Positions 1 through 37,078 of a stretch of 37,300 bases of DNA are shown here, in pieces. Source of the stretch: Patescibacteria group bacterium (lineage in GTDB: Bacteria; Patescibacteriota; Minisyncoccia; Phycocordibacterales; WO2-35-19); contig JBBUBJ010000006.1 in the NCBI GenBank assembly GCA_038058285.1, positions 8,683 to 45,982 on the forward strand. Reading direction: 5' to 3'. The first letter of the stretch is position 1; each line of letters begins with the position of its first letter. The notes under the pieces are model-generated. The model did not search any database, was not told where the DNA came from, and was given only the letters and a program-made list of their open reading frames with translations. A program made the translations under genes and the position numbers.

Positions 1-56
1 ATATTTATATTATACACCTTTACTTTGCATTTTGTGCAACAAAATTGGGGAAAAAA

Positions 57-101
57 CCTCACCCGCACTTTGTGTCGGCCTCTCCTTGATTAAGGAGAGG
101 C
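57..101 (-). repeat. Family D hairpin element (tail CCTCACCC... plus 10-bp stem)
   Basis: Perfect stem GCCTCTCCTT (78-87) / AAGGAGAGGC (92-101) with a GATT loop. It is preceded by CCTCACCCGCAC, which resembles the CTCACCCCCAACCC tail of other family D copies. Confidence 0.5.
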
Positions 102-165
102 AAAAATAAAATTTGACTTTTTTATATTCAATATGGTAATGTGTTTTTGGAAAAGGAGTAAGGCG

Positions 166-375
166 ATGAAAGCGATAAGATTCTTTTTGGCTTTGATGGC
201 AGGTTTTGGGCTACTTCTTGCGTTATTGCGGCTCTGTTATTACATACCCGAGCATCGGGGAACGCCAGAAAGCTTCGTGGCCATTCTTGTTGTTTTTATG
301 GCAACAGTGATTGCCATGATTGGTTGTTTCGTGCTTGCTTTGTGGTGGCACAGGGTTGATTGGCCACCGCATTGA
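166..375 (+). CDS. Small predicted membrane protein (two hydrophobic helices), orphan
   Basis: ORF track 133..375. I prefer the ATG at 166 because AAGGAG (153-158) lies 7 nt upstream. There are two long hydrophobic stretches and a terminator follows directly. Looks G+C-richer than its neighbours by eye. Confidence 0.45.
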   Translation: MKAIRFFLALMAGFGLLLALLRLCYYIPEHRGTPESFVAILVVFMATVIAMIGCFVLALWWHRVDWPPH

Positions 376-384
376 TCTTTGTAG

Positions 385-420
385 AAGGCCGCGCTCACAG
401 GAGCTCGGCCTTTCTCTTTT
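385..420 (+). terminator. Rho-independent terminator after 166..375
   Basis: Stem AAGGCCG (385-391) / CGGCCTT (406-412), followed by TCTCTTTT. Confidence 0.6.
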
Positions 421-424
421 ATAT

Positions 425-1162
425 TTATATTTCCTCATCCAAATCATTTGGTTCAAACCCGACATCCAATGTAGGGCTGAAATCTGGGTTAAAAGATAGC
501 CACTCAAAAACTTCTTTTTTAAATATTTTAGGATTATCAAAATATTCTGGGAAATCTTTTTTTGAAAGAATTTTATTTTGTTCTCTTCCTTTTCCGCAAT
601 AATCTTGATAACTACTCCATTCGTAATTTTCCAAAAACTTTTTTGCTTTTTCAACATCTTTTATTCCGTTTTCTTTCCACTTTGAATCAATAAGTTTAAC
701 TGGATTTAGATGAATATAAGAAAAAATATATTTTGAGTATGGATCGGTGTCTATATAAGAGCTCTTGAAATTTGTTTCAAAAAGTCCGCCAGTACGTTTA
801 TATTTTGTATTAAAATATTTTGAGTATGATATGCAGAGTTTTTTCATAAAAAGACTAACCTGATCTAACCCGACATTGGATGTAGGGCTGGGTGTTAGAG
901 TTGTTAAAATGTGAAAATGATTTGGCATAAGTGCCCAAGCACCGATTGAAACGATTGGCTTTCCTTTATCAAACTCCCAAGCATCTATTTTTCTTTTAAC
1001 AATATCATCTCTAAAATTTATTCGTTTTTTAGAATTGGAAAGATACAACATTTTTACAAAACGACTTCTATCTTGATCATCTAGGAAAATATTTTGTTTG
1101 CTATTTCCCCTGTTATAAAGATGATAGAACTCACCTTCCACAAAATTTTCTTTTCTTTGCAT
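425..1162 (-). CDS. IS200/IS605-family Y1 (HUH) transposase-like protein, RAYT-like (copy 1)
   Basis: Motifs: N-terminal GEFYHLYNRGN, HUH motif MPNHFHIL, C-terminal YIHLNP with Tyr. Paralogous to 36377..37027. Two copies of the family F palindrome sit in-frame inside the ORF. Confidence 0.8.
   Translation of the reverse strand: MQRKENFVEGEFYHLYNRGNSKQNIFLDDQDRSRFVKMLYLSNSKKRINFRDDIVKRKIDAWEFDKGKPIVSIGAWALMPNHFHILTTLTPSPTSNVGLDQVSLFMKKLCISYSKYFNTKYKRTGGLFETNFKSSYIDTDPYSKYIFSYIHLNPVKLIDSKWKENGIKDVEKAKKFLENYEWSSYQDYCGKGREQNKILSKKDFPEYFDNPKIFKKEVFEWLSFNPDFSPTLDVGFEPNDLDEEI
457..478. repeat. Family F palindrome, copy 1 (CCCGACAT-CCA-ATGTAGGG)
   Basis: Imperfect 8-bp arms around a 3-nt loop. It is the exact reverse complement of 1205-1222. 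Read in-frame as ...SPTLDVGFEP... at the transposase C-terminus. Confidence 0.75.
867..890. repeat. Family F palindrome, copy 2 (CCCGACAT-TGG-ATGTAGGG)
   Basis: Same arms as copy 1 but the loop is complemented (TGG versus CCA). Read in-frame as ...SPTSNVGLD..., 6 residues after the HUH motif. Confidence 0.75.
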
Positions 1163-1168
1163 AAATAC

Positions 1169-1177
1169 ATTCTATCA
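1169..1177 (-). promoter_or_regulatory. Extended -10 box TGATAGAAT, 6 nt before ATG 1162 (leaderless start suggested)
   Basis: The minus strand reads TGATAGAAT-GTATTT-ATG. No SD is possible. This is the same geometry as at 36362-36377. Confidence 0.45.
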
Positions 1178-1226
1178 AACATCGGATGTAGGGCAAAGAC
1201 CAATCCTACATTGGATGTCGGGTTTT
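1177..1226. repeat. Family F palindromes, copy 3 (partial copy plus full inverted copy)
   Basis: ACATCGGATGTAGGG (1179-1193), then an 11-nt spacer, then CCTACATTGGATGTCGGG (1205-1222). The two can pair with each other. Located just upstream of the transposase -10 box. Confidence 0.7.
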
Positions 1227-1235
1227 GTTCATTTT

Positions 1236-3026
1236 TTATTCCAAAACTGCTTTAATGCGACGGATGCCGAGGGAGGAGGCTTCTTCTTTTGTTATTTTGA
1301 AATGACCGAGTTCAGAAGTGTTTGAAGCGTGTGGGCCTCCACAAAACTCGGTGCTGAAGCTTCCTATTTTATAAACTTTGACAACATCTCCATATTTAGA
1401 CAAATCAAAAGACAAAGTACCAACCATTTTAATAGCTTCTTCTTTTGGCAGTTCCATCATCTCAACTGGAATATTTTGTTTAATTTTTTCATTTACTAAA
1501 TCTTCTACCGTCTTCAGTTGTTCGGGGGAAAGTTTTTGGCTCCAATTAAAATCAAATCTTAATCTTTCAGTGGTTATATTGCTTCCCTTCTGCATAATCC
1601 CTGCCTCGCTGGCAGGCAGGTCTCCTCCCAATATTTTCCTCAAAGCTGCTAAAAGCAAATGAGTGGCAGTGTGCAATTTTTTATTTTCTTCACCAGCATC
1701 CGAAAGCCCACCTTTGAACATTCCAGCCGAAGCCGTGCGTGAAAGTTCTTGGTGCTTTTTAAATTCCTCATCAAATTCTTCAATTAATCTTTTGCCGAGA
1801 GGCGTGTTTCGCACATCAAATGACGCTCTATTTTTTAAATAATTCTTATTTATTTCAGCGCTCAATTCCTCAAGACACATTTCAAAAGGAAAACCATAAG
1901 TTGTTGATATTACAAACAAATCTTTTCCACTGATTGAAACAATATCAAAAGAATTAATATCAACAGAATATTCTTTTTCATCAGACATAAGAATCATTTC
2001 ACCAAATTTTCCTGATATAAGTTTTTTAAATTCTTTTAATCCAACATCTAAAGTTTTTTCAAATTTTTCTTTTTCTTTTTTTAATTCATCTAAAATTTTT
2101 TCTTTATTTTTTTTCAATTCCGGATAAATATCTTTATAAATGTCAATAACTTTTTCTGCTATCTTAAAATCAGCCCCGTATCTTACCGCTCGGCGAATGA
2201 GGCGTCTCAAAACATAGCCACTGCCAGTATTGGATGGCGTGATTCCTTCGGATAAAATAAAAACAGCTGTTTTTATGTGATCAGCCACAATTCTTATTTT
2301 TTTGTTATCTTCTTTTATTAAATCTTTAAACACATCTGTTTCAAAAACACTTTTTTGTCCGTTCAAAATCATCAGTGTTCTTTCCAAACCCATGCCCGTA
2401 TCAACATTTTTTTGTTTTAACGGCTCGTATTTCCCATCAGCCGTTTTATTGTATTCCATAAAAACATTGTTCCAAATTTCAACACCATCAACAAAAATTT
2501 CCGTATCCGGACCGCAAGGGCCCGTTTCTCCTCCTTGTTCCCACCAATTATCTTCTCTGCCTAAAAATTTTATTTTATTTTTTGGAATACCCAAGGACTC
2601 CCAAATTTGCGCCGACTCGTTATCTTTTGAAATGTTATTTTTGCTATCACCCTCAAAACAAGTTATAGAAATTCTTTCAACCGGAATCCCAAGTTCCTTT
2701 ATCAGAAATTCGAAACTCCAACTAATAGATTCTTTTTTCCAGTAATCACCTAAAGACCAGTTGCCGAGCATTTCAAAAAAAGTTAAATGAGTATTATCCC
2801 CCACTTCGTCTATGTCTTTCGTTCTTATGCACTTCTGCACATTTACCAGTCTATTCCCCGAAGGATGTTTTTGGCCAAGTAAATAAGGGACAAGCGGATG
2901 CATGCCGGCCGTAGTAAAAAGCACTGAAGGGTCGTTTTCGGGAATAAGAGAAGCGCTGGGAATTATGGCATGCACTTTGCTCTTAAAAAAATCCAAATAT
3001 TTTTTTCTTAATTCCTGTGAGGTCAT
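1236..3026 (-). CDS. alaS: Alanine--tRNA ligase, short form without the C-Ala domain
   Basis: N-terminus LRKKYLDFFKSKVHAIIPSASLIP...FTTAGM. Editing-domain motifs HTATHLL and CGGPH. The protein ends right after the editing domain. I prefer the ATG at 3026 over the TTG at 3047 in the ORF track. Confidence 0.9.
   Translation of the reverse strand: MTSQELRKKYLDFFKSKVHAIIPSASLIPENDPSVLFTTAGMHPLVPYLLGQKHPSGNRLVNVQKCIRTKDIDEVGDNTHLTFFEMLGNWSLGDYWKKESISWSFEFLIKELGIPVERISITCFEGDSKNNISKDNESAQIWESLGIPKNKIKFLGREDNWWEQGGETGPCGPDTEIFVDGVEIWNNVFMEYNKTADGKYEPLKQKNVDTGMGLERTLMILNGQKSVFETDVFKDLIKEDNKKIRIVADHIKTAVFILSEGITPSNTGSGYVLRRLIRRAVRYGADFKIAEKVIDIYKDIYPELKKNKEKILDELKKEKEKFEKTLDVGLKEFKKLISGKFGEMILMSDEKEYSVDINSFDIVSISGKDLFVISTTYGFPFEMCLEELSAEINKNYLKNRASFDVRNTPLGKRLIEEFDEEFKKHQELSRTASAGMFKGGLSDAGEENKKLHTATHLLLAALRKILGGDLPASEAGIMQKGSNITTERLRFDFNWSQKLSPEQLKTVEDLVNEKIKQNIPVEMMELPKEEAIKMVGTLSFDLSKYGDVVKVYKIGSFSTEFCGGPHASNTSELGHFKITKEEASSLGIRRIKAVLE
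1599..1620. repeat. Short GC-rich hairpin embedded in alaS
   Basis: CCTGCC (1600-1605) / GGCAGG (1611-1616) around TCGCT. Encodes LPASEAG between the conserved LG and QKGS of the editing domain. The CCTCGCT string is shared with the family D copy in leuS. Confidence 0.35.
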
Positions 3027-3088
3027 ATTACATATAATAATACTCAAATTTTGACTTATTTCAAATAATCAATTATTCTTTACCCCAT

Positions 3089-4357
3089 ATGAACTACAAA
3101 AAAAAGGTCTTAAAAAATGGGTTGAGGATTATAGCTGTGCCTATTAAAAATGCACCGTCGGTGACAGTGATGTCTTTGATTGAGGCGGGATCAAAATACG
3201 AAAATAAGCAAAACAACGGCATCTCGCATTTTTTGGAGCACATGTGTTTTAAGGGCACAAAGAAGAGGCCTAAAGCCATTGATATTTCAAGAGAATTTGA
3301 TTCCATGGGCGCTCAGCATAATGCCTTTACTGGTCAGGAAGTAACTGGTTATTGGGCCAAAGCGCACAAAAAACATACAGATAAAATGCTAGATATTATT
3401 GCCGATATGTATTTGAACCCCACTTTTCCAGCTGGAGATTTGGAAACAGAAAAAGGGGTAATAGTAGAAGAAATAAATATGTATGAAGATTTGCCTCAGA
3501 GACTAGTGCAAGAAGTTTTTAATGAACTCTTGTATGGTAATCAACCAGCTGGTTGGAGTATCGCCGGCACTAAAGAAAATGTGCGGGGATTTAAACGGGA
3601 TGATTTTGTAAATTATAGAAAACAGCATTATGTTTCTTTTGCTACTACTATTGTTATTGCCGGAGATGTTGATCCTAAGAGTATTTTTAAAAAAGTAGAA
3701 AGATTTTTTGCTGGTATGCCGGTTAGCAAAAAAAATGGAAAGAAAAAAGTTATAGAAAAACAAAACGTGCCGGCAGTTAAGTTGCGATTTAAAGAAACAG
3801 ATCAAACACATCTGGTAATAGGTGTCAGAGCTTTTAATCTTTATGACAAAAAAGCACCAGCTTTAAGATTGCTTTCAACCGTGCTTGGCAATGGTATGAG
3901 CTCTCGTCTTTTCCAGAAGATGAGAGAAGAATTGGGCATCTGCTACTATGTCAGGTCTACCGTTGATGATTTGACTGACCATGGTATTCTGTCAATTTCA
4001 GCTGGAGTTGATTCAAATAGGGTTGAACAGGGTATAAATGGAATTTTGGATGAAATGAAAAAAATCAGAGATGAAAAAATTCCAGAATCCGAATTGCGCA
4101 AAGCCAAAGATTATGTTATAGGTTGTATGTATCTGGGTTTAGAATCCTCCGACTCTCTGGCAAATTTTTATGGTTCTCAAGAAATTTTTAAAGAAAAAAT
4201 AAAGACGCCTAAAGATATTGAAAAAGAAATTGAAAAAATCACCGCCTCCGATATCGGCAAAGTTGCCAAAGAAATAATCACCAACAAAAAACTCAATATG
4301 GCCATTGTCGGCAAATATAAAGACGAGGAGCGATTCAAAAAGATTCTAAAACTTTAA
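3089..4357 (+). CDS. M16 family zinc peptidase (insulinase/pitrilysin-like)
   Basis: HxxEH zinc motif (HFLEH) near the N-terminus. The roughly 420 aa two-lobe length is typical. Confidence 0.85.
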   Translation: MNYKKKVLKNGLRIIAVPIKNAPSVTVMSLIEAGSKYENKQNNGISHFLEHMCFKGTKKRPKAIDISREFDSMGAQHNAFTGQEVTGYWAKAHKKHTDKMLDIIADMYLNPTFPAGDLETEKGVIVEEINMYEDLPQRLVQEVFNELLYGNQPAGWSIAGTKENVRGFKRDDFVNYRKQHYVSFATTIVIAGDVDPKSIFKKVERFFAGMPVSKKNGKKKVIEKQNVPAVKLRFKETDQTHLVIGVRAFNLYDKKAPALRLLSTVLGNGMSSRLFQKMREELGICYYVRSTVDDLTDHGILSISAGVDSNRVEQGINGILDEMKKIRDEKIPESELRKAKDYVIGCMYLGLESSDSLANFYGSQEIFKEKIKTPKDIEKEIEKITASDIGKVAKEIITNKKLNMAIVGKYKDEERFKKILKL

Positions 4358-4928
4358 AATCTTTTTTGAGAATATCCAAAGTGTGGGAGTTGTAGACGGC
4401 GACGCAGGGGTGATAAAGAGGAACGACTTTAATGTCACCGTAGCTTGTGGTGGTGTCAAAAGTTCTGCCGTGATTTTTGCTTATGGGTTCAAGTTCAAAT
4501 TCTAAACCAAACTTGGGCATTATGTAATACATAGAATATCTACCAAGAGTAGCAATTATTTTTGGTTGTATAATTTCAATCTGTCTGTCCAAAAAAGGCC
4601 CATAAATTTCTATTTCTTCCGGTAATGGATCGCGATTTGCCGGTGGTCTGTCTTTAACTATATTAGTCACATAAACTTCTTCTCTTTTTATGCCAACAGA
4701 ATTCAAAAGTTCATTTAAAATATCTCCGGCTCGGCCACAGAAAGGCCTTCCTGTTCTTGCCTCGTTTCTACCCGGCGCCTCGCCTATAAACATTATTTTG
4801 GCACTATGACTTCCCTCGCCTATTACCGGCAAATTTTTATTTTGTATCCTAAATTCATAAAGTGGCGATTTTTTTAACATCACCACTTCATCTTTTATTT
4901 TCCTCATCAATTCTTTTCGTTCTTCCAT
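4335..4928 (-). CDS. Uracil-DNA glycosylase, family 4
   Basis: Motif A is GEAPGRNE with RPFCGRAG. Motif B is the HP in PLYHPC. Length is about 197 aa. Confidence 0.85.
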   Translation of the reverse strand: MEERKELMRKIKDEVVMLKKSPLYEFRIQNKNLPVIGEGSHSAKIMFIGEAPGRNEARTGRPFCGRAGDILNELLNSVGIKREEVYVTNIVKDRPPANRDPLPEEIEIYGPFLDRQIEIIQPKIIATLGRYSMYYIMPKFGLEFELEPISKNHGRTFDTTTSYGDIKVVPLYHPCVAVYNSHTLDILKKDFKVLESF

Positions 4929-4950
4929 TTTTAAATAATATCATACTCGA

Positions 4951-5004
4951 CCCCACCCCGTCCCGCTAAAGCGGGACCGCCCCTCACCTTGCGAAGGTGA
5001 GGGG
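4951..5004 (-). repeat. Family D composite: CCCCACCCC tail, GTCCCGC-TAAA-GCGGGAC hairpin, CCCCTCACCTT-GCG-AAGGTGAGGGG hairpin
   Basis: Two perfect hairpins at 4960-4977 and 4980-5004. The first shares the GCTAAAGC/GCTTTAGC core with family C. Confidence 0.6.
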
Positions 5005-5034
5005 AAAAACCAAAATTTCAAAATTAACCAAAAA

Positions 5035-5048
5035 TTCACGATCGTGAA
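5035..5048. promoter_or_regulatory. Perfect 14-nt palindrome TTCACGATCGTGAA (candidate operator) upstream of the 5111 unit
   Basis: Perfect dyad located 14 nt upstream of the TTGCTT -35 box. Confidence 0.3.
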
Positions 5049-5061
5049 AATCTGGTCAGTA

Positions 5062-5089
5062 TTGCTTTTATTTTGAATATGGTTATACT
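5062..5089 (+). promoter_or_regulatory. Sigma70-like promoter TTGCTT-N16-TATACT
   Basis: -35 at 5062-5067 and -10 at 5084-5089. GGAGGTG (5097-5103) and ATG 5111 follow. Confidence 0.45.
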
Positions 5090-5110
5090 GAAAAATGGAG
5101 GTGTTCCAGT

Positions 5111-5482
5111 ATGCTTACTCGAGCTGCTATGAATCGCAGTTTAGGATTACCGCGTGCCCCTGGATCTTGTTTCGGAGTTTCCGATCCAAGATATTTACGG
5201 CCCAACTTCAACAGAAGTCCGCTTCCGTTGCCACAAGCGACCAACAAAAACAAGGCCACGATTACCACCAGATTTTATATTCTGGAATGGTGGAAGAAAA
5301 ACTTCGAGCCAGAACACAGGTCTTTTAGGGCCAAAAACAATGGCCTGGCTGTCATCAAAGCGATGCGCATTCTCGGCATCAAAGGGAAATTGACTGGTCA
5401 CAAGCTCCGCAAAGCCGGAGCGAGCAGAGTTTCTCTCCTCAGCTTTAGCGATGGGGAGATTTTCCCGGGACCCAAGCAGTGA
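5111..5482 (+). CDS. Hypothetical basic protein (orphan); coding status uncertain
   Basis: GGAGGTG lies 7 nt before the ATG, a promoter lies upstream and a terminator downstream. However, the G+C-rich stretch is open in several frames on both strands and the N-terminal half is low-complexity (R/P/S/L-rich). Confidence 0.35.
   Translation: MLTRAAMNRSLGLPRAPGSCFGVSDPRYLRPNFNRSPLPLPQATNKNKATITTRFYILEWWKKNFEPEHRSFRAKNNGLAVIKAMRILGIKGKLTGHKLRKAGASRVSLLSFSDGEIFPGPKQ
5434..5459 (+). repeat. Family C hairpin (stem TCTCC/GGAGA around AGCTTTAGCGA)
   Basis: TCTCCTC-AGCTTTAGCGA-TGGGGAGA. Same loop as 7349-7374 and 12463-12490 but with a different stem. Confidence 0.5.
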
Positions 5483-5501
5483 TCATTTGGTTGGAATAAT
5501 G

Positions 5502-5536
5502 GCGGGCAGGATTCATTCTTGTCCGCTTTGTTTTTT
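5502..5536 (+). terminator. Rho-independent terminator after 5111..5482
   Basis: Stem GCGGGCAGG / CTTGTCCGC (two G-U pairs), followed by TTTGTTTTTT. Confidence 0.6.
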
Positions 5537-6314
5537 ATTTTTCTCCCTTCCCCTTCGCAAGGGGAAGGGTTGGGGGTGAGGTCGTTTTGTTATTTACCGA
5601 ATTTATATACGCGCAATACTCGCAATTAGGGCTTGCTTTTGGAATTTCGTCGTTGTCCAAACATTTTTTCATATCTATCAAAGTTTTTTCTATCCAGTCG
5701 TCTTTGCCTGTGTAAGGAATAATTTTTATATCAAATTCAAGTTTGCCGTCAAAAGCTTCGCGGTCGCGCTTGCCATTTGCATAAACAAAATAACCGGTAT
5801 CAGAAACATTCAAATCATTATGTCGCAAAAGCCACTGATAAACTTCCATCTGTCTTTTGTAACCGTCTTGCCACTCGGCGTCCAAATTTACTTCTTCGTC
5901 TTTGCTTGTGGCTTTATAATCAACCACCATAAGCTGACCGTCTGGACTTTGCCAAATATCATCAACCGCTCCAAAAACTACAAAATTAGTTGGCTCATGA
6001 AATGTCTCAACACCAACAAAATTTTCTCGCCACTTTTCCATACGCGGATCTTGAAAAGGCACGGCGTCTATCCCGTAAGATTCCATAAGCGGGTGCGGGG
6101 TTTTTTGTTTTCGATGAATATCAAATTCTTTTTTGAGAAGCGTATCAACCGCGCTATTTAAGTTAAAAGGAAATCCCTGTGGTCGTGAGACACCAATTCG
6201 CCTGTCCAAATAAAAACATCGCGGACACTCCACAAACAGGTCAATTTTACTTCGGCTCACTTTGAAAAATTCCTTTGCCTTTGGGTCGTATAATTTTTTT
6301 CTATAAAATGCCAT
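5535..6314 (-). CDS. PD-(D/E)XK nuclease, Cas4/RecB-like with terminal Cys pairs
   Basis: N-terminal CPRC, core VVDYK (D-x-K), C-terminal CEYC. The last 15 codons and the stop lie inside a family D repeat. Confidence 0.7.
   Translation of the reverse strand: MAFYRKKLYDPKAKEFFKVSRSKIDLFVECPRCFYLDRRIGVSRPQGFPFNLNSAVDTLLKKEFDIHRKQKTPHPLMESYGIDAVPFQDPRMEKWRENFVGVETFHEPTNFVVFGAVDDIWQSPDGQLMVVDYKATSKDEEVNLDAEWQDGYKRQMEVYQWLLRHNDLNVSDTGYFVYANGKRDREAFDGKLEFDIKIIPYTGKDDWIEKTLIDMKKCLDNDEIPKASPNCEYCAYINSVNNKTTSPPTLPLAKGKGEK
5545..5581 (+). repeat. Family D hairpin + tail (CCCTTCCCCTT-CGC-AAGGGGAAGGG + TTGGGGGTGAGG)
   Basis: Perfect 11-bp stem at 5545-5555 / 5559-5569. The tail matches 12783-12792 and 29854-29865. 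Confidence 0.75.
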
Positions 6315-6327
6315 TAGAATAATTAGG

Positions 6328-7155
6328 TTAATTAGAAATTAGTTTTATCTCTGCAATCATTTTATCAATCTTATCTTTACTTAAACCTGCCTGAACTAAT
6401 ATATCAGGATTATCAAGTGCTTGTTTGCAGAGGACAATACCAGCCTGCATCAAAAGTTTTTCATCGCTTGGGGTGCTTGAGTTGAGACAAGTGATAGGAT
6501 GCAAATGAGCCTCTTCAATCAAATCTTGCAAATTACCATGTTCCGGATAATTCCAGCCGACCAATTTCATATTTTGGCATTTAGCATATTTAATAGCTGA
6601 TTCAGAAAATTTAGTGTTTGTAATGAGCCATCCTTCGTCAAGCTTGTGCTGGTGGTTGCCAAAATCAAATGCAGTGTTAGCCAAATCATCCCATCTGGCT
6701 TTTATATAAAGAGCAATTTTAAGGTCTGATTTGATGCCGAGCTCGTTATGAAATTTAGCTTCAACAAAAATTAATTTTTGTTCGTTCCATGCGACAATGT
6801 CTATTTCATGTTCGGCGCATTCACCTTTGGCAATAAAATCAGTTGTGGTCTCAAAACCTTTGGCTCTAAAAATTTCAGCCACAAATTGTTCAAAAGGAAA
6901 ACCTGTTGGTCCCATTTCCATTACCGCTCGGCGAAGCGAATATCTAGCTGTCGCCGGGCTTTCCTCTTTTTTCAAAAGTTCAAAAGCATGATTATAAATA
7001 TCTTTAGTACTAGCATTATCTTTAAGTTCTCTTTCTATTTGATCTACTATGTTATCAACCGCTTCTGTGCTAGCTCCTGCCCGTGTTAAAGAATCCCGCA
7101 ACTTCTGCGCATTAAATTCTTCTCTTTCTCCCGTTGCTTTAATTATGTATTTCAT
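6328..7155 (-). CDS. ATP-cone domain fused to an Mrr-like restriction endonuclease domain
   Basis: N-terminus KATGEREEFNAQKLRDSL...IERELKD (ATP-cone pattern). Then FEQFVAEIFRAKGFE...HEIDIVAW...FVEAKFH (D...E-x-K REase core). Its ATG at 7155 overlaps the mnmA TGA stop (ATGA). Confidence 0.65.
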   Translation of the reverse strand: MKYIIKATGEREEFNAQKLRDSLTRAGASTEAVDNIVDQIERELKDNASTKDIYNHAFELLKKEESPATARYSLRRAVMEMGPTGFPFEQFVAEIFRAKGFETTTDFIAKGECAEHEIDIVAWNEQKLIFVEAKFHNELGIKSDLKIALYIKARWDDLANTAFDFGNHQHKLDEGWLITNTKFSESAIKYAKCQNMKLVGWNYPEHGNLQDLIEEAHLHPITCLNSSTPSDEKLLMQAGIVLCKQALDNPDILVQAGLSKDKIDKMIAEIKLISN

Positions 7156-8276
7156 TTTTCTATTATACCACCACCAAGACAAATTTCATTGTCATACAAA
7201 ACCAAAGATTGTCCCGCCGAAACTCCCATTTGTGGTTTGTCAAACTCAACCAACAAGGATGACCCTTGTTGGTTAGGTTTTTGTGGTGTAATTTTGCATG
7301 GAATTTTTTCTTGGCGGTATCTTGTACGACAAAATAATTTTTCTTTAGTCCCGCGAAGCTTTAGCGAAGTGGGATTTATCCAATTTATTTCTGAAATTTC
7401 AAGTGTCAAGGGTCCCCCTTGGCTTTTTGAGTATGGTGTAATTTTGGGAGCGACAGTTATAGTGTTTTTTGAAATGTCTTTAGAAACAACATACAAAGGC
7501 ATTTCATTTTCTGATTTTTTGGTGACAGTGAATCCATGACGTTCGCCTATTGTAAAAAATAAAGCTCCGTTGTGGTGACCTATTTTTTTTCCTTCTAAAT
7601 CCAAAACATCTCCTCTTTTTGTTGGCATATATTGAGCTAAAAATTCTTTCATATCTATTTTACCCAAAAAACAAAGTCCTTGGCTGTCTTTTCTTGTCGC
7701 CTGTGGCAAGCCAAATTTTTCCGCCAACTTTCGTACTTTTGGTTTTTGCAAATGACCTATGGGAAATAAAATATGTTCGAGTTGTTTCTGTGTTAATGTC
7801 CACAAAAAATATGATTGGTCTTTGTTTTTGTCGGCTCCTTCCATTAACCCCACCCTGCCCTCCCCTTGATCAGAGGAGGCAACCGTACGAGCATAATGGC
7901 CAGTAGCAACATATTGAGCGCCATTTTTAAGAGCAAATTTGAGAAAGTGGCCGAATTTTATTTCTTTATTGCACATTACATCAGGATTAGGTGTTCTCCC
8001 TTTTTTATATTCGGCAATCATATAGTCAACCACTTCTTTTTTATATTCTTTTTCCAAGTCAAGAGTAATAAAAGGAATATCCAAAACTGCCGCCACTCTC
8101 ATAGCGCTTCTTCTATCTTCTTTCCAAGTGCAAGGATAACTCGGCGGAGTCCACGCTTTTATAAAAACTCCTGTCACATCATAACTTTCCTTCTTCAGCA
8201 ATGCCGCCGACACAGCGCTATCTACGCCTCCAGAAAGCCCCACATAAACTTTCTTTTTTACTGATTGACTTTTCAT
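7152..8276 (-). CDS. mnmA: tRNA 2-thiouridine(34) synthase MnmA
   Basis: PP-loop SGGVDS, KDQSYFL, TRYRQ and the C-terminal GQS.VLY pattern. Contains family A, B, C and D repeats in-frame. Confidence 0.9.
   Translation of the reverse strand: MKSQSVKKKVYVGLSGGVDSAVSAALLKKESYDVTGVFIKAWTPPSYPCTWKEDRRSAMRVAAVLDIPFITLDLEKEYKKEVVDYMIAEYKKGRTPNPDVMCNKEIKFGHFLKFALKNGAQYVATGHYARTVASSDQGEGRVGLMEGADKNKDQSYFLWTLTQKQLEHILFPIGHLQKPKVRKLAEKFGLPQATRKDSQGLCFLGKIDMKEFLAQYMPTKRGDVLDLEGKKIGHHNGALFFTIGERHGFTVTKKSENEMPLYVVSKDISKNTITVAPKITPYSKSQGGPLTLEISEINWINPTSLKLRGTKEKLFCRTRYRQEKIPCKITPQKPNQQGSSLLVEFDKPQMGVSAGQSLVLYDNEICLGGGIIEK
7248..7295 (+). repeat. Family A hairpin + tail, solo copy inside mnmA
   Basis: AACCAACAAGG-ATGAC-CCTTGTTGGTT + AGGTTTTTGTGGTGTAATTTT. 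Near-identical to 37031-37078. It is 48 nt long and is read on the minus strand as KITPQKPNQQGSSLLV. Confidence 0.85.
7349..7374 (+). repeat. Family C hairpin inside mnmA
   Basis: TCCCGC-GA-AGCTTTAGCGA-A-GTGGGA. Read on the minus strand as PTSLKLRG. Confidence 0.7.
7401..7445 (+). repeat. Family B hairpin + tail inside mnmA
   Basis: AAGTGTCAAGGGTCCCCCTTGGCTTTTTGAGTATGGTGTAATTTT. It is 45 nt long and is read as KITPYSKSQGGPLTL. Near-identical to 12561-12605. Confidence 0.85.
7848..7880 (-). repeat. Family D (short, degenerate) inside mnmA
   Basis: CCCCACCCTGCCCTCCCCTTGATCAGAGGAGGC compared with 14729-14773 (CCCCACCCC...GCCCTCCCCTTGTTCAGGGGAGGG). Read as SDQGEGRVG. Confidence 0.55.
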
Positions 8277-8313
8277 AATGGCTTATGTTATTATATTTTT
8301 GGAGGTGTAGCAA

Positions 8314-8673
8314 ATGCGAATTGTAGTTGTTTTACAGACGGATTTTCAAAAAGATGACGTTGGCGAAAAGATGGGGGCTCTTTTGAGTCTTCTTAACACC
8401 CTCGAGGTTGAATCAAAAAAACTTGCCATTCAAATGCCGTCGGGGGATGACTCGGTACTAAAGATAGATGTTCTGGATTCCCGTGAAGTTGATGGCGGGT
8501 CTGTGGAAAGTTTCAAATCACTTGTCCGTTTTGGCGGCGCGGTTCATGAAAGATGTGTTGAGTTCACTGCTCCAGACGGCTATAGGGATCCCTATTTCTC
8601 CGTTGATGGGAGAAAAGTAACATCTGGAGAGGTCTTTAGCGAGGTCTTCGGGACAGTGTTAGAAAAATTCTGA
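8314..8673 (+). CDS. Hypothetical acidic protein (orphan)
   Basis: GGAGGTG (8301-8307) lies 6 nt before the ATG and a strong terminator follows. Looks G+C-richer than its neighbours by eye. I recognise no motif. Confidence 0.5.
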   Translation: MRIVVVLQTDFQKDDVGEKMGALLSLLNTLEVESKKLAIQMPSGDDSVLKIDVLDSREVDGGSVESFKSLVRFGGAVHERCVEFTAPDGYRDPYFSVDGRKVTSGEVFSEVFGTVLEKF

Positions 8674-8686
8674 GCCGGCTGAACCA

Positions 8687-8723
8687 GCCCCCTCCGTGTG
8701 TATACCGGAGGGGCGCTTTTTTT
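8687..8723 (+). terminator. Rho-independent terminator after 8314..8673
   Basis: Stem CCCCTCCG (8689-8696) / CGGAGGGG (8706-8713), followed by CGCTTTTTTT. Confidence 0.65.
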
Positions 8724-9750
8724 ACCTCAAATACAATTCCCTATTTATTTTGTGCTCCTCAAAATTTTTAGCATAATACATATTTCCTTTTTTGTCAGAG
8801 AGAAAATATAAGTAATCTGTTTTTGTTGGTGTTATGGCAGCACGAATGGAATCAATGCCAGGATTGGTTATGGCTGTCGGTGGCAAGCCCTTATTTGTGT
8901 AAGTATTGTATTCATGATCTTCTTTTAAATCTTCTTTAGTTAAAGTGTAAGAATTTTTGCCATTGTAATATTGGAATGGCGCATCCACTTGCAAAGGCAT
9001 TTCCAGACGAAGCCGCTTCCACAAGATACCTGAAACAATTCTTTTTGATTCAAGAGTGCCGTTAGCTTCGTCTTCTATTATTGAGGCCATTATAATAACT
9101 TCGTTCAAAGGTTTTTTAAATTTTAAAATATCAGGCTGATATTTTTCTATTTGTCTGGCGAAATTTTCTCGCATCATTAATATAACATCGCTGGCTCTGG
9201 TATTGGGCATAAAAAAATAAGTGTCGGGAAATAAATAACCCTCATAATTATTATCCAAAATCTCATCCTCAAAATCATCCGCCTTAAAAGCTGGCAGTTC
9301 TTTTGTCAAAATCTCAGCCATTTCAAAAGAAGAAGTGCCCTCGGGAACGGTTATTTTTTTGGCTATCAAACCAAATTCGCCTTTGTGAATCATGCTAGCT
9401 ACTTTGAAAACACTGACAGCCGAAGGAAAATAATAATCACCAGCAATTACTCTCTTTTCACCGCCTAAAATAAAAATAAATGTTTTAAGCCAAAAACTGG
9501 AACGCACCACATTTTTTTGTTCAAAAGAATTGGCTATTTGAGAAAGAGACTCGCCTCTCTCAATGGTAACGAGAGCTTGTTCCGGAAAAGGTCTTGGTGA
9601 TCTCCAAAAAATAAAATAAGAAATAGAAAATAAAATTAGAAATAAAAAAACAGCCGATATTGTCCTAAGAAAATGATTATCTAAAAATATTAAAAACCTA
9701 GTAAATCGTTCTCGCCATATTTTTTTATCCAAATTTAATCTGAAATTCAT
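8722..9750 (-). CDS. mltG: Endolytic murein transglycosylase MltG (YceG-like)
   Basis: N-terminal TM helix, GDYYF, ASIIEDEA (catalytic Glu context) and YNTY..GLPP..I.NPG. Confidence 0.8.
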   Translation of the reverse strand: MNFRLNLDKKIWRERFTRFLIFLDNHFLRTISAVFLFLILFSISYFIFWRSPRPFPEQALVTIERGESLSQIANSFEQKNVVRSSFWLKTFIFILGGEKRVIAGDYYFPSAVSVFKVASMIHKGEFGLIAKKITVPEGTSSFEMAEILTKELPAFKADDFEDEILDNNYEGYLFPDTYFFMPNTRASDVILMMRENFARQIEKYQPDILKFKKPLNEVIIMASIIEDEANGTLESKRIVSGILWKRLRLEMPLQVDAPFQYYNGKNSYTLTKEDLKEDHEYNTYTNKGLPPTAITNPGIDSIRAAITPTKTDYLYFLSDKKGNMYYAKNFEEHKINRELYLR

Positions 9751-9752
9751 TT

Positions 9753-11021
9753 TTATATAGGCAGATTAAAGGGAGCTTCGGATTTTTTGGACGGAATTCT
9801 TTCAAATGTTGGAGTGGTTGAAACCAAACCCGGGAAATGATAAATGGTTGCCAACTCCTCGGCGTTCAAAACAAAAGGTTTGGTAACATGATATTTTTTA
9901 CCTTTCCATGGCGAATAAAAATATCGGCGGAGTTTGTATTCTTCCAACAATTTTGGTTTTATTTTTTCTTCCCTGTTCCACCATTTGTCCCATGGATAAT
10001 CAAAATCATCAAACCATCCTTTTGGTCTAAAACCATTTAAATTAAGTGAGCCATATTGCTTCAATGTTCCTATTGTTCCCCCAATGTTTGCTGGGTTAAA
10101 TTTGTCTTTATCGGCAATATAAACTGCTCTTATGCCACAATCAAAAGGAAATTTAGAAACACTACGTTCCAAAGCGGCAATTCTATCAGCTTCTCCTTTG
10201 CTTGGTATTCTTGGGAATCCACCCTCATCTTTAGCAACTTTTAATTCTTCTAAAATTTTATTTTTTGCTATCTTGGCATCTTCTTTCCAAGTGTCAACTT
10301 TTTCATACCAAGCAAATTTTTCCCATTTTTTCTTCCATTCAAGGGGTTTTCTTATTTTGTCTTTATGAGCGCGAATTAAAATTTGAATCCAAACATTGTG
10401 TCCGGCCGTCATAGAACCCAAAAATTCTATCATAGCTGTCATAGGGTCAATTTTAAATTCTTCTTTGGGGTCTCTATCAAGACCATAATCAACATAAGTT
10501 TTTATTGGAAAAGGGTCTGGTTCGGTAAGAGCAAATTCGACCCCCCAGACATTGTTTTTTTCAGGATTGTAATAAAAAGACTTGGTATAATCCTCTGCCT
10601 CGTAAATTTCTATGCCGGGATACTGAGAATATATTTGAGCCTCGATAGCGTTTCTATGTTTTGGTTTAGTCCATATAAAAAATCTGACTTGACCTCCAAG
10701 AGAAACAACTTCCAATGAAAACCAAGATCTTGTTTTGCCTTCCCATGTCTTGTTTATCCAAGTGGTTTCTCCTCCGGTCTGATGAAAAGCGCCCAAAACA
10801 ATTTCCATAGCCAAAGGCGACTTGTTTATTTCCCTAGGCAATTTTATTTCAAGTAAAACAGAACCCTCTTTTTGCCAAAATTTTAATCGTTTATATTTAA
10901 GCCAAGCATTAAATAAAAGCGTCAAAAAAATCACTGGCAACCAAACAGCCGAAGTTGCATAAACATATTTAAACGCCATCATCAAACTACCCCAAATTTC
11001 AGGTGATATAAAACTGAACAT
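9753..11021 (-). CDS. Conserved hypothetical membrane-anchored protein
   Basis: Long ORF with an N-terminal TM helix pair. The C-terminal ELATIYHFPG motif is reminiscent of CPR and Gram-positive secretion-associated proteins. There is no P-loop. Confidence 0.6.
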   Translation of the reverse strand: MFSFISPEIWGSLMMAFKYVYATSAVWLPVIFLTLLFNAWLKYKRLKFWQKEGSVLLEIKLPREINKSPLAMEIVLGAFHQTGGETTWINKTWEGKTRSWFSLEVVSLGGQVRFFIWTKPKHRNAIEAQIYSQYPGIEIYEAEDYTKSFYYNPEKNNVWGVEFALTEPDPFPIKTYVDYGLDRDPKEEFKIDPMTAMIEFLGSMTAGHNVWIQILIRAHKDKIRKPLEWKKKWEKFAWYEKVDTWKEDAKIAKNKILEELKVAKDEGGFPRIPSKGEADRIAALERSVSKFPFDCGIRAVYIADKDKFNPANIGGTIGTLKQYGSLNLNGFRPKGWFDDFDYPWDKWWNREEKIKPKLLEEYKLRRYFYSPWKGKKYHVTKPFVLNAEELATIYHFPGLVSTTPTFERIPSKKSEAPFNLPI

Positions 11022-14728: not shown

Positions 14729-14773
14729 CCCCACCCCTCGCTTCGCGTAGCCCTCCCCTTGTTCAGGGGAGGG
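14729..14773 (-). repeat. Family D tail + hairpin
   Basis: CCCCACCCC tail, then CTCGCTTCGCGTAG, then stem CCCTCCCCT (14751-14759) / AGGGGAGGG (14765-14773). Confidence 0.7.
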
Positions 14774-29786: not shown

Positions 29787-29865
29787 TCACCCTACCCTCT
29801 CTTACAACAAGAGAGGGTTTCTGAAACCCCCTTCCCTTGTTAAGGGAAGGGGGTTGGGGGATGAG
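29787..29865. repeat. Inverted pair of family D elements between dnaX and ddl
   Basis: Left element: CTCACCCTA + CCCTCTCTT-ACAAC-AAGAGAGGG (29795-29817). Right element: CCCCCTTCCCTT-GTT-AAGGGAAGGGGG (29827-29853) + TTGGGGGATGAG. The tails point outward. Confidence 0.75.
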
Positions 29866-36321: not shown

Positions 36322-36372
36322 AATCAAACCAACAAAGATGACCTTTGTGGTTTGATTAGTGTGGTATAATTT
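36322..36372 (+). repeat. Family A hairpin + tail, left flank of transposase-like gene
   Basis: AATCAAACCAACAAAG-ATGAC-CTTTGTGGTTTGATT + AGTGTGGTATAATTTT. The stem carries a compensatory A-T pair where other copies have G-C. Confidence 0.8.
36362..36370 (+). promoter_or_regulatory. Extended -10 box TGGTATAAT formed by the repeat tail, 6 nt before ATG 36377
   Basis: TGGTATAAT-TTTGAT-ATG. No SD is possible. Confidence 0.5.
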
Positions 36373-36376
36373 TGAT

Positions 36377-37027
36377 ATGAAAAATAGGGATTATAAAAAT
36401 TTTGCTAAGGGAGAAATTTATCATGTTTATAATAGAGGGGTGAATAAAGCAGATATTTTTAAGACTCAGAAAGATTATGAGGTTTTTCTATCCCGTTTAA
36501 AAGAAAATTTATTTCCTGAATTTGTAGATAAAAAGAAATTATCTTGGTTGGAAAAACGCAGAAAATTACTTCCCCCAAACTCTTTTGATTTAATATGTTA
36601 TTGTCTTATGCCGAATCATTTTCATTTACTTATTCAACAAAAAACAGATTTACCCATAACCAAATTAATATCTAAAATATGTACAAGTTATGCAATATGT
36701 TTTAACAAAAAACATGGGAGAGTTGGGGCGGTTTTTCAGGACCAATTTAAGGCTGTATTAGTTGAAAACAATGAACAACTTTTATGGACATCTTATTATA
36801 TTCATAAAAACCCAACAGAAGCAGATATTGTAATAAATCTCAAAGATTATAAATGGGGCAGCTATTCGGAATATTTTGATAAGGAAAATAGTTTTAAATT
36901 ATGTAAAAAAGATATTATTACTAAACAGTTTAATTCCGAAAAGCAATATTTAAAGTATTTTGATGATAAAGAAAATGATGAAATGACTTCTTTGAGAGAT
37001 TTTTATTTTGATTTTAGCGAGGATTAA
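36377..37027 (+). CDS. IS200/IS605-family Y1 (HUH) transposase-like protein, RAYT-like (copy 2)
   Basis: GEIYHVYNRGVNK, HUH motif MPNHFHLL, YIHKNP with Tyr. I prefer the ATG at 36377 because the GTG at 36359 in the ORF track lies inside the repeat. Confidence 0.8.
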   Translation: MKNRDYKNFAKGEIYHVYNRGVNKADIFKTQKDYEVFLSRLKENLFPEFVDKKKLSWLEKRRKLLPPNSFDLICYCLMPNHFHLLIQQKTDLPITKLISKICTSYAICFNKKHGRVGAVFQDQFKAVLVENNEQLLWTSYYIHKNPTEADIVINLKDYKWGSYSEYFDKENSFKLCKKDIITKQFNSEKQYLKYFDDKENDEMTSLRDFYFDFSED

Positions 37028-37030
37028 CAA

Positions 37031-37078
37031 AACCAACAAGGATGACCCTTGTTGGTTGGCTAAGTGTGGTGTAATTTT
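37031..37078 (+). repeat. Family A hairpin + tail, right flank of transposase-like gene
   Basis: AACCAACAAGG-ATGAC-CCTTGTTGGTT + GGCTAAGTGTGGTGTAATTTT, starting 4 nt after the stop codon. Confidence 0.85.

What the first reader, a model, noticed from the sequence alone, without database searches (positions are those of the whole stretch)
425..1226. A second RAYT/IS200-like gene has a different palindrome family and carries copies inside its own reading frame
Family F (CCCGACAT-NNN-ATGTAGGG) occurs upstream of the gene (1177-1226), 6 residues after the HUH motif (867-890, read as SPTSNVGLD), and in the last codons (457-478).

Copies 1 and 2 have identical arms but complementary loops (CCA versus TGG). 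Copy 3 is the exact reverse complement of copy 1. A loop flip with retained arm asymmetry is what hairpin-templated copying or repair would leave behind. The paralog at 36377 has no such segment after its HUH motif.

I saw no family F copies elsewhere in this window. Each transposase-like gene therefore appears to be paired with its own hairpin family.
Basis: partly seen in the sequence, partly recalled or inferred. Interest (0 to 1): 0.65.

Follow-up and report, generated by a model that had tools for sequence, protein, structure and literature searches.

The report
RAYT-like gene carrying its own hairpins
A conserved single-strand-DNA transposase-like gene of a tiny groundwater bacterium has the DNA hairpin it presumably acts on in front of the gene, in frame inside it and in its last codons; relatives show this layout is old and the copies change together, but the same kind of in-gene hairpin was already published for a related enzyme subclass.

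Summary
The 245-aa gene at 425..1162 (-) has a RAYT-like Y1/HUH fold. The 19-nt hairpin CCCGACAT-NNN-ATGTAGGG occurs upstream, just after the HUH motif (read as SPTSNVG) and ten codons before the stop, and nowhere else in the window.

It is not a recent accident. All homologs with an insert after HUH form one clade of Patescibacteria genes (46 rows, 36 still palindromic). Outgroup genes have only the two flanking hairpins.

Within a locus the three copies match. Between loci they differ by compensatory changes: stem positions 2-9 are 95% Watson-Crick against 18-37% in shifted controls.

The closest relatives are syntenic orthologs next to alaS, yet individual sites have switched hairpin family in place.

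AlphaFold puts both hairpin-coded peptides in disordered segments of an otherwise confident fold. The best PDB match is the E. coli RAYT-REP complex.

So this is the enzyme's cognate REP-like hairpin, kept alive at three sites including one in its own reading frame.

[quoted passage not shown] 2018). New here are the lineage, hairpins without a GTAG foot, and the evidence for one origin and concerted turnover.

The parts
425..1162 (-). RAYT-like Y1/HUH transposase gene, 245 aa. HUH is H82-F-H84 (911-919). The catalytic-type motif is Y149-IHL-NP (Y at 716-718).
   Evidence: ORF. NCBIfam REP_Tyr_transpos 5e-10, below the cut-off. Pfam Y1_Tnp 5e-4, below the cut-off. H82, H84 and Y149 are invariant in 52 homologs. 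AF2 pLDDT 84.5 and best Foldseek match 4ER8_A at 3.5e-7. The profile aligns HUH and Y---NP to 4ER8.
1202..1224 (-). Upstream family F copy (UP1). On the gene strand it reads AACCCGACAT-CCA-ATGTAGGATT, inverted relative to the two in-gene copies. It lies 41 nt before the start codon.
1175..1193 (-). Degenerate upstream copy (UP2). On the gene strand it reads CCCTACAT-CCG-ATGTTTGA, in the same orientation as the in-gene copies. With UP1 it forms an inverted doublet separated by 8 nt.
   Evidence: The same doublet is seen in orthologs L082 and L085.
1169..1196 (-). Promoter-like site TTGCCC-16 nt-TAGAAT with TG before the second hexamer. It spans UP2 and its -10 ends 6 nt before the ATG.
   Evidence: 9 of 12 matches. 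A like site spans the upstream hairpin in 8 of 32 upstream copies of relatives, against 2 of 36 internal and 0 of 34 3'-end copies.
867..889 (-). Internal family F copy. On the gene strand it reads AGCCCTACAT-CCA-ATGTCGGGTT and is translated S92-PTSNVG-L99, in the loop between the HUH strand and the next helix.
   Evidence: pLDDT is below 50 at residues 95-97 and the block mean is 57 for residues 91-100. The segment is absent from the paralog and from the outgroup.
456..478 (-). 3'-end family F copy. On the gene strand it reads AGCCCTACAT-TGG-ATGTCGGGTT and is translated S229-PTLDVG-F236. Ten more codons follow (EPNDLDEEI tail).
   Evidence: pLDDT is below 50 for residues 229-245.
36359..37027 (+). 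Paralogous RAYT-like gene (30% identity) without the insert. It is flanked by its own hairpin AACCAACAAGGATGACCCTTGTTGGTT. It serves only as a comparison.

Best explanation
Family F is the cognate REP-like hairpin of this RAYT-like Y1/HUH enzyme. The gene is a single-locus, vertically inherited member of a Patescibacteria (Paceibacteria/Minisyncoccia) lineage of REP-associated tyrosine transposases.

Like its relatives, the gene is bracketed by two copies of its hairpin. One is built into the promoter region. The other lies at or over the stop codon.

In the ancestor of one clade, a third copy was inserted in frame into the disordered loop between the HUH beta-strand and the following helix. 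This is the same place where REP insertions are published for tnpA-REP subclass 2.4.

Since then the three copies have not decayed independently. They stay alike within a locus and change together between species. They flip orientation, and single sites are replaced in place by related hairpin families.

Inferred, not shown: this homogenisation comes from continuing activity on the hairpins. Candidates are cis-acting excision and re-insertion by the enzyme, or short-patch copying and template switching between hairpin copies.

The in-gene copy is tolerated because it encodes a floppy surface loop. In most loci the palindrome's centre is a third codon position, so a flip changes only a wobble base.
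For: **Sequence and chance.** Three copies plus one degenerate copy lie at the gene, and 0.01 are expected by chance.

**Fold and catalytic residues.**

**Outgroup layout.** Homologs at 33-57% identity have matching GC-rich hairpins upstream and downstream only, and an invariant 11-residue loop after HUH.

**Single origin.** All insert-bearing genes form one clade with support 100/87. It has 46 rows, 36 of them still palindromic, and is sister to a 33-row clade with no insert. The basal member L003 carries CCCTAGGC-AAG-ACCTAGGG at all three sites. That is the hairpin type which flanks the outgroup genes.

**Concerted change.**
- The internal hairpin matches its own upstream flank within 2 mismatches in 26 of 34 loci, and its own 3' end in 25 of 34. 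The figure is 4-5% against other loci.
- Stem positions 2-9 are 95% Watson-Crick over 34 distinct internal hairpins, with up to four pair types per position. Shifted controls give 18-37%.

**Orthology.** The gene sits between alaS and the same downstream genes in 8 loci. It is 78-87% identical there, while alaS is 51-54%.

**Replacement in place.** L082 has F upstream and inside but K at the 3' end. L084 has K/K/Q and L088 has Q/Q/K. The surrounding codons stay homologous.

**Flips.** In 10 loci the central bases differ between copies, and the differing bases are always complementary.

**Decay without maintenance.** Decayed internal copies drift towards A+T while the flanks stay intact.

**DNA level rather than RNA level.** There is no excess of G-T over A-C mismatches on the sense strand.

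**Published precedent.** PMC6006769 describes in-frame REPs between HuH and Y in subclass 2.4.
Against: - No enzymatic activity, binding or mobility was tested.
- The hairpin family is low-copy where it could be counted. There are none elsewhere in about 44 kb of this genome (the window plus the L081 extension). In relatives there are 13 extra copies in 443 kb. A dispersed REP population is therefore not demonstrated for this genome.
- The protein scores below the curated cut-offs of both the RAYT and the Y1_Tnp models.
- The hairpins lack the GT[AG]G foot typical of REPs.
- The internal palindrome has been lost in 10 of 46 lineages while the gene stays intact. It is therefore not indispensable.
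- Ordinary RecA-type gene conversion, or selection on three operator-like sites, could produce the same concerted pattern without the enzyme.
Confidence: 0.78

Rival explanations
1. The three palindromes are functional cis-regulatory sites. The protein, or another dimeric factor, binds the promoter copy and the two in-gene copies and represses its own gene, possibly by looping. This would resemble operators that lie inside lacZ or galE.
For: - The upstream copy overlaps a promoter-like site in the window.
- A like site spans 8 of 32 upstream copies of relatives, against 2 of 36 internal and 0 of 34 3'-end copies.
- Many copies are perfect palindromes with a single central base, as expected for double-stranded sites.
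- Palindromy is kept at the DNA level.
- The internal copy is retained in 36 of 46 lineages over deep divergence.
Against: - The fold is that of enzymes that bind single-stranded hairpins.
- The same hairpins also occur in frame in unrelated genes.
- The internal copy was lost in 10 lineages without loss of the gene.
- The strict promoter match is found in only a quarter of the loci.
- Nothing was measured.
Confidence: 0.12
2. The hairpins act in the mRNA, for example as a stabiliser, a pause site or a translation brake at the stop codon, and are conserved for that reason.
For: The internal and 3' copies are transcribed. From my own knowledge of published work, not checked here: REPs close to stop codons are reported to lower translation in E. 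coli.
Against: - G-T pairs show no sense-strand excess. For internal copies there is 1 G-T against 6 A-C.
- Copies occur in both orientations.
- The upstream copy lies in the -35/spacer region and would largely not be transcribed.
- Identical copies match across coding and non-coding positions.
Confidence: 0.05
3. This is a recent, chance in-frame insertion of a mobile palindrome into this one gene. That is the first reader's implied reading.
For: In-frame hairpin insertions are common in this genome according to earlier scan notes. Relatives also show recurrent events, such as an extra in-frame copy at residue 165 in L124/L125.
Against: The insert is shared by a 46-row clade with one origin. 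It is present in syntenic orthologs down to about 55-60% identity.
Confidence: 0.02
4. The SP-x-S-x-x-G peptide is a conserved protein motif, and the palindromy of its DNA is incidental.
For: Similar peptides (SPTSDVG, SPKSDFG) recur in the closest homologs at both places.
Against: - Across the clade the peptide changes completely (PRRRLG, HMSDMW, KTEALLPSG, PEPGSG) while the DNA stays palindromic.
- The same DNA occurs in non-coding flanks.
- The segment is predicted to be disordered.
- The outgroup lacks it.
Confidence: 0.02
5. The unit is a mobile IS200/IS605-type insertion sequence whose left and right ends are the flanking hairpins.
For: It has the Y1/HUH fold and hairpins at both ends.
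Against: - The gene has the same genomic position in 8 related genomes.
- The upstream copy is inverted relative to the 3' copy wherever orientation can be read.
- The Y---NP motif belongs to class 2 TnpA-REP, not the Y---Q of IS200.
- No duplicate copies were seen.
Confidence: 0.01

Closest known systems
REPtrons of TnpA-REP subclass 2.4 (Bertels RAYT group 4; Cyanobacteria, Bacteroidetes), Quentin et al. 2018, PMC6006769
   Same: The tnpA-REP gene is flanked by its REPs and also carries REP insertions inside the gene. [quoted passage not shown] They are modelled as a peripheral, variable region. The Y---NP motif is shared (compared).
   Different: - The lineage here is Patescibacteria, which the paper's text does not mention.
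- The hairpins are short (8-12 bp stems), often perfect palindromes, without a GT[AG]G foot.
- Copy number is low where it could be counted.
- Membership in subclass 2.4 itself was not tested.
- The single origin, the syntenic orthology and the site-by-site switching shown here are not, as far as I read, in that paper.
E. coli TnpA-REP (RAYT, YafM) with REP/BIME sequences, PDB 4ER8
   Same: It is the best structural match (Foldseek 3.5e-7, TM 0.62 on the target) and the only PDB sequence match. It has the HUH and Y---NP motifs. It is a single-copy gene flanked by cognate hairpins.
   Different: The E. coli protein has 165 aa, a short loop after HUH and no in-gene REP. Its REPs carry a GTAG foot and number in the hundreds per genome. 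The protein here scores 39 bits against a cut-off of 80 for the NCBIfam RAYT model.
Intragenic REPs and Rickettsia palindromic elements (Di Nocera et al. 2013, PMC3733652)
   Same: Short palindromic repeats are inserted in frame in protein-coding genes and presumably sit in loops. Different REPs are reported at about the same site of recB in two Xanthomonas species.
   Different: Those cases concern unrelated host genes. Here the host gene is the presumed mobilising enzyme itself, and the copy co-varies with the gene's own flanks.
HUH initiators whose nick site lies inside their own gene (phiX174 gene A; pT181-type Rep). From my own knowledge, not checked here.
   Same: An HUH enzyme has its cognate hairpin or nick site embedded in its own coding sequence, which favours action in cis.
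   Different: Those are replication origins of phages and plasmids. No replication role is suggested here.

Membership tests
Y1/HUH transposase superfamily (TnpA-Y1) | HUH motif and a single catalytic Tyr on a Y1 fold | tested here: met
   H82-F-H84 and Y149 are invariant in 52 homologs. The AF2 model has pLDDT 84.5. The top 24 Foldseek hits are all Y1 transposases.
Y1/HUH transposase superfamily (TnpA-Y1) | Pfam Y1_Tnp (PF01797) at or above the gathering score | tested here: not met
   20.6 bits against a cut-off of 23. Several close homologs carry a precomputed PF01797 hit.
RAYT / TnpA-REP (class 2) | Class 2 Tyr motif Y---NP (PMC6006769) | tested here: met
   Y149-I-H-L-N153-P154. It aligns with YIYINP of 4ER8. 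The definition of the motif is read.
RAYT / TnpA-REP (class 2) | NCBIfam REP_Tyr_transpos equivalog score | tested here: not met
   39.4 bits against a cut-off of 80. It is the only family hit.
RAYT / TnpA-REP (class 2) | Gene flanked by cognate palindromes (REPtron layout) | tested here: met
   For the window. For relatives and the outgroup.
RAYT / TnpA-REP (class 2) | Single copy, vertically inherited, not moving as a unit | tested here: met
   The position between alaS and the same downstream genes is conserved in 8 loci.
RAYT / TnpA-REP (class 2) | Cognate REP dispersed in many copies over the genome | not testable with these tools
There are no extra copies in about 44 kb of this genome. 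In relatives there are 13 extra copies in 443 kb, some in frame in other genes.
RAYT / TnpA-REP (class 2) | GT[AG]G tetranucleotide foot at the 5' end of the REP | tested here: not met
   The flanks of about 100 copies show only extensions of the stem (TTG..CAA, TCC..GGA, AGC..GCT). No conserved GTAG or GTGG foot is seen. In family F a GTAG lies inside the arm, which is probably incidental.
TnpA-REP subclass 2.4 (Quentin 2018) | [quoted passage not shown] | tested here: met
   compared with the paper's text.
TnpA-REP subclass 2.4 (Quentin 2018) | Clustering with subclass 2.4 reference sequences, and the 8-aa insertion at the end of alphaB | not tested
   No reference sequences of the subclass were at hand.
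IS200/IS605 insertion sequences | Multicopy mobile unit, Y---Q motif, about 150 aa | tested here: not met
   The gene is a syntenic single locus, has Y---NP and has 245 aa.

The most novel reading that the evidence does not exclude
The in-gene hairpin is not a tolerated passenger but a working part of the system. By keeping a live copy of its substrate in its promoter and inside its own reading frame, the enzyme would act on, or sense, its own gene whenever that DNA is single-stranded. This could limit its own expression. It could also keep a protected master copy of the hairpin that cannot be lost without losing the enzyme, which would explain why enzyme and hairpins stay matched over long times.
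Probability: 0.25. Interest if true: 0.7.

Novelty: new variant of a known kind. Interest (0 to 1): 0.42.

Why it matters
REP/RAYT systems are among the few mobile-DNA systems that persist by vertical descent, and how enzyme and repeat stay matched is an open point.

This Patescibacteria clade offers a compact natural experiment. There are three copies per locus, dozens of syntenic orthologs, and hairpin sequences that have changed by compensatory steps and by replacement in place.

It extends the published in-gene REP feature of subclass 2.4 to ultra-small groundwater bacteria. It also supplies evidence on the feature's origin (one event) and its maintenance (concerted).

The finding explains two disordered segments in the protein. 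For annotation, it warns that such GC-rich in-frame segments are repeat DNA, not domains.

Tried and rejected
- **Counting copies with contigs of public runs.** I laid contigs on a 52-nt stretch around the internal copy. Only the locus itself was laid, and even the gene's own 3' copy was not. The method is therefore blind to 19-23-nt matches.
- **Searching run contigs for excision or flip variants in the gene.** None were seen, but contigs drop rare variants.
- **Viral contigs.** One match in the whole collection, which is uninformative.
- **Strict sigma-70 scan over all upstream copies.** Only 8 of 32 pass, so the promoter overlap is a subset feature and not a rule.
- **RNA-level reading.** The mismatch spectrum gives it no support.
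- **Literature.** No paper in the library links REP or RAYT with Patescibacteria. A phrase search for REPs inside RAYT genes found nothing relevant. The relevant passage on subclass 2.4 was found only by reading PMC6006769.
- **Readings considered and rejected.** A recent chance insertion, a protein motif and an IS200-type mobile unit (see the rival explanations).

Full report
**1. What is in the window**

The reading frame 425..1162 on the minus strand encodes 245 residues.
- It hits only REP_Tyr_transpos in NCBIfam (5e-10, 39 bits, cut-off 80).
- It hits only Y1_Tnp in Pfam (5e-4, 20.6 bits, cut-off 23).
- H82, H84 and Y149 (YIHLNP) are invariant in an alignment of 52 homologs.
- An AlphaFold2 model built on that alignment has mean pLDDT 84.5.
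- Its best PDB match is chain A of 4ER8, the E. coli REP-associated tyrosine transposase bound to a REP hairpin (E 3.5e-7). IS200/IS605 transposases follow.
- A profile of the alignment finds only 4ER8 in the PDB by sequence. It aligns the HUH strand and the Y---NP helix.

The pattern CCCGACATNNNATGTAGGG occurs exactly at 458-476 and 869-887. It occurs with one mismatch on the other strand at 1204-1222. About 0.01 matches are expected by chance. A degenerate copy at 1175-1193 faces the upstream one.

On the gene strand the copies read as follows.
- UP1: AACCCGACAT-CCA-ATGTAGGATT
- UP2: CCCTACAT-CCG-ATGTTTGA
- Internal: AGCCCTACAT-CCA-ATGTCGGGTT, read as S92-PTSNVG
- 3' end: AGCCCTACAT-TGG-ATGTCGGGTT, read as S229-PTLDVG

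The one correction is that the upstream copy is the reverse complement of the 3' copy at 18 of 19 positions, not all 19.

The model is confident everywhere except residues 91-100 and 229-245. Those are exactly the two hairpin-coded segments.

**2. The insert is old and has one origin**

A search of 5.8 billion proteins gave 3410 relatives. In the alignment most close relatives carry P-x-S-x-x-G-like peptides at the same two places.

I fetched DNA for 80 homologs from genomes (33-57% identity) and 80 from metagenomes (48-100%). L081 is the window's own population.
- The distant homologs have an invariant 11-residue loop after HUH (for example ITETKDGGISKF) and no hairpin there. They do have matching GC-rich hairpins just upstream and downstream of the gene, often inverted relative to each other. 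That is the ordinary RAYT layout.
- Homologs above about 55% identity have a longer loop (13-25 residues) that contains a GC-rich palindrome with an 8-12 bp stem.

A maximum-likelihood tree was built with the loop masked. It places every such gene in one clade (support 100/87, 46 rows). Of these, 36 are still palindromic and 10 have an insert of similar length that no longer pairs. The sister clade has 33 rows and no insert. Two unrelated genes have 2-3 extra residues without a hairpin.

The basal member L003 carries CCCTAGGC-AAG-ACCTAGGG at all three sites. That is the hairpin type flanking the outgroup genes. The simplest reading is one in-frame insertion of the gene's own flanking hairpin.

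**3. The three copies evolve in concert**

In each of the 36 loci the same hairpin is found in three places.
- Upstream, up to 68 nt before the called start; in a few loci it overlaps the start.
- In the reading frame at residues about 90-116, or up to 139 where the called start lies too far upstream.
- In the last codons, or within 36 nt (mostly within 24 nt) after the stop.

The sequences differ widely between loci. Examples are CCCGAAGTC-G-GACTTCGGG, GCCAACGTC-C-GACGTTGGC, CCCTAGGCG-T-CGCCTAGGG, CCACATGTC-A-GACATGTGG and ACGGAAGTC-G-GACTTCCGT.

- Over 34 distinct internal hairpins, stem positions 2-9 are 95% Watson-Crick. With the partner shifted by 1-3 positions the figure is 18-37%. Up to four pair types occur per position.
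- The internal copy matches its own upstream flank within 2 of 18 positions in 26 of 34 loci. It matches its own 3' end in 25 of 34. Against other loci the figure is 4-5%.
- The encoded peptide changes completely (PKSDFG, PRRRLG, HMSDMW, KTEALLPSG, PEPGSG). Selection or maintenance therefore acts on the DNA, not on the peptide.
- Mismatches show no excess of G-T on the sense strand. This speaks against an RNA-only role.

**4. These are orthologs, not mobile units**

In L081-L086, L088 and L149 the gene lies between alaS and the same downstream genes. It is 78-87% identical among them, better conserved than alaS (51-54%).

Among these orthologs, single sites have switched between three related hairpin families.
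- F: CCCTACAT...
- K: CCCGAAGTC-N-GACTTCGGG
- Q: CCAAACGTC-N-GACGTTGGG

The window has F at all sites. L082 has F upstream and inside but K at the 3' end. L084 has K, K, Q. L088 has Q, Q, K. The codons on either side stay homologous. Hairpins are thus replaced in place, with length and frame kept.

In 10 loci the central base differs between copies, and the difference is always the complement. Copies therefore flip.

In 29 of 36 loci the centre of the internal palindrome is a third codon position. A flip of a perfect palindrome then changes only a wobble base.

In the window the internal and 3' copies share arms, including the T/C mismatch, but have complementary loops. I infer an exchange limited to the perfectly symmetric inner stem (ACAT/ATGT) and the loop, for example by template switching between inverted copies. 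This is not shown.

Where the internal copy has lost pairing (L086, L002, the PNKENLAEN group of seven), remnants are recognisable and have drifted towards A+T, while the flanking copies are intact. Without maintenance the GC-rich palindrome therefore decays. The internal copy is also dispensable.

L124/L125 carry a further in-frame copy at residue 165, so acquisitions recur.

**5. Dispersal**

Outside the gene I found 13 further copies in 443 kb of relatives' DNA. Some lie in frame, as doublets, in long reading frames of other genes.

In the window plus the L081 extension (about 44 kb) there is none. An F-like pattern occurs in the 160 fetched loci only at this gene in L081, L082 and L085.

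Contigs of public runs are not sensitive to such short matches.

**6. Possible regulation**

In the window a promoter-like site (TTGCCC, 16 nt, TAGAAT, with TG) spans the degenerate upstream copy. It ends 6 nt before the ATG.

In relatives a like site spans the upstream hairpin in 8 of 32 cases. In 7 of these the -10 ends 6 nt before the start. The figures are 2 of 36 for internal copies and 0 of 34 for 3'-end copies.

This fits autoregulation through the hairpin, but it is only a consensus match in a subset.

**7. Comparison with what is known**

RAYT genes flanked by their REPs, one REP family per RAYT, and co-evolution of the two are established (PMC5581495; PMC6006769). Intragenic in-frame REPs are also known (PMC3733652).

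Most to the point, Quentin et al. 2018 state the following for TnpA-REP subclass 2.4.
- REP sequences are found inserted within the tnpA-REP genes themselves.
- The insertions do not disrupt the frame.
- The region is variable in length and sequence and is peripheral in a model.

The headline of this finding is therefore already published for another part of the family.

What differs or is added here:
- A Patescibacteria lineage, which the paper's text does not mention.
- Short, often perfect palindromes without the GT[AG]G foot.
- Low copy number where it could be counted.
- Explicit evidence for a single origin, orthology, concerted change and replacement in place.

Whether this clade belongs to subclass 2.4 was not tested.

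Earlier notes of this scan describe the same layout in other Patescibacteria genomes. They agree with my reading but are not independent evidence. One of them pointed me to subclass 2.4, which I then verified in the paper.

**8. Verdict**

The feature is real and biologically coherent. It is a new variant, or new lineage, of a known arrangement. How the copies are homogenised, and whether the in-gene copy has a function, remain inferred.

Noticed in passing
window 56-424: A strain-level cassette swap lies directly after the gene's stop codon. In locus L081 (99.5% identical to window 425-10003) and in contigs of runs X3 and X9, a different 338-nt segment replaces these 369 nt. It encodes a 76-aa soluble-looking protein in place of the window's 80-aa membrane-like peptide (133..375). 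Each version ends in its own terminator-like hairpin. ATATTTATAT occurs at 1-10 and 421-430.
   Followed up: partly
L082, L084, L088 (3' ends of the orthologous genes): The hairpin in the last codons belongs to a different family (K or Q) than the upstream and internal copies of the same locus, while the surrounding codons are homologous. This is replacement in place of a 19-nt palindrome.
   Followed up: partly
L124 and L125, residue about 165 of the gene: An additional in-frame copy of the locus's hairpin (AAAACGGAAGCAAGGCTTCCGTTTT, read NKNGSKASV) replaces part of the conserved WKENGIK segment. The downstream flank there carries a different hairpin.
   Followed up: no
L133 1840-1881; L149 3246-3285; L103 11100-13754: Further copies of the respective locus's hairpin lie outside the RAYT-like gene, mostly as doublets 23-32 nt apart. 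Several are in frame in long reading frames (602 aa and 371 aa).
   Followed up: partly
window 1600-1620: A GC-rich palindrome, CCTGCC-TCGCTG-GCAGG(CAGG), lies inside alaS (1236..3047, minus strand) and is read within ...DLPASEAGIMQ.... alaS is only 51-54% identical among otherwise close syntenic relatives.
   Followed up: no
window 7248-7274, 36323-36349 (imperfect), 37031-37057: The hairpin of the second RAYT-like paralog (AACCAACAAGGATGACCCTTGTTGGTT) flanks that gene on both sides. It also occurs inside the reading frame 7152..8276 (minus strand).
   Followed up: no
window 78-101, 4980-5004, 5545-5569, 12759-12783, 14751-14773, 29794-29855: Many other GC-rich perfect hairpins (stems 9-14 bp) are scattered through this A+T-rich window. 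Several lie inside long reading frames.
   Followed up: no
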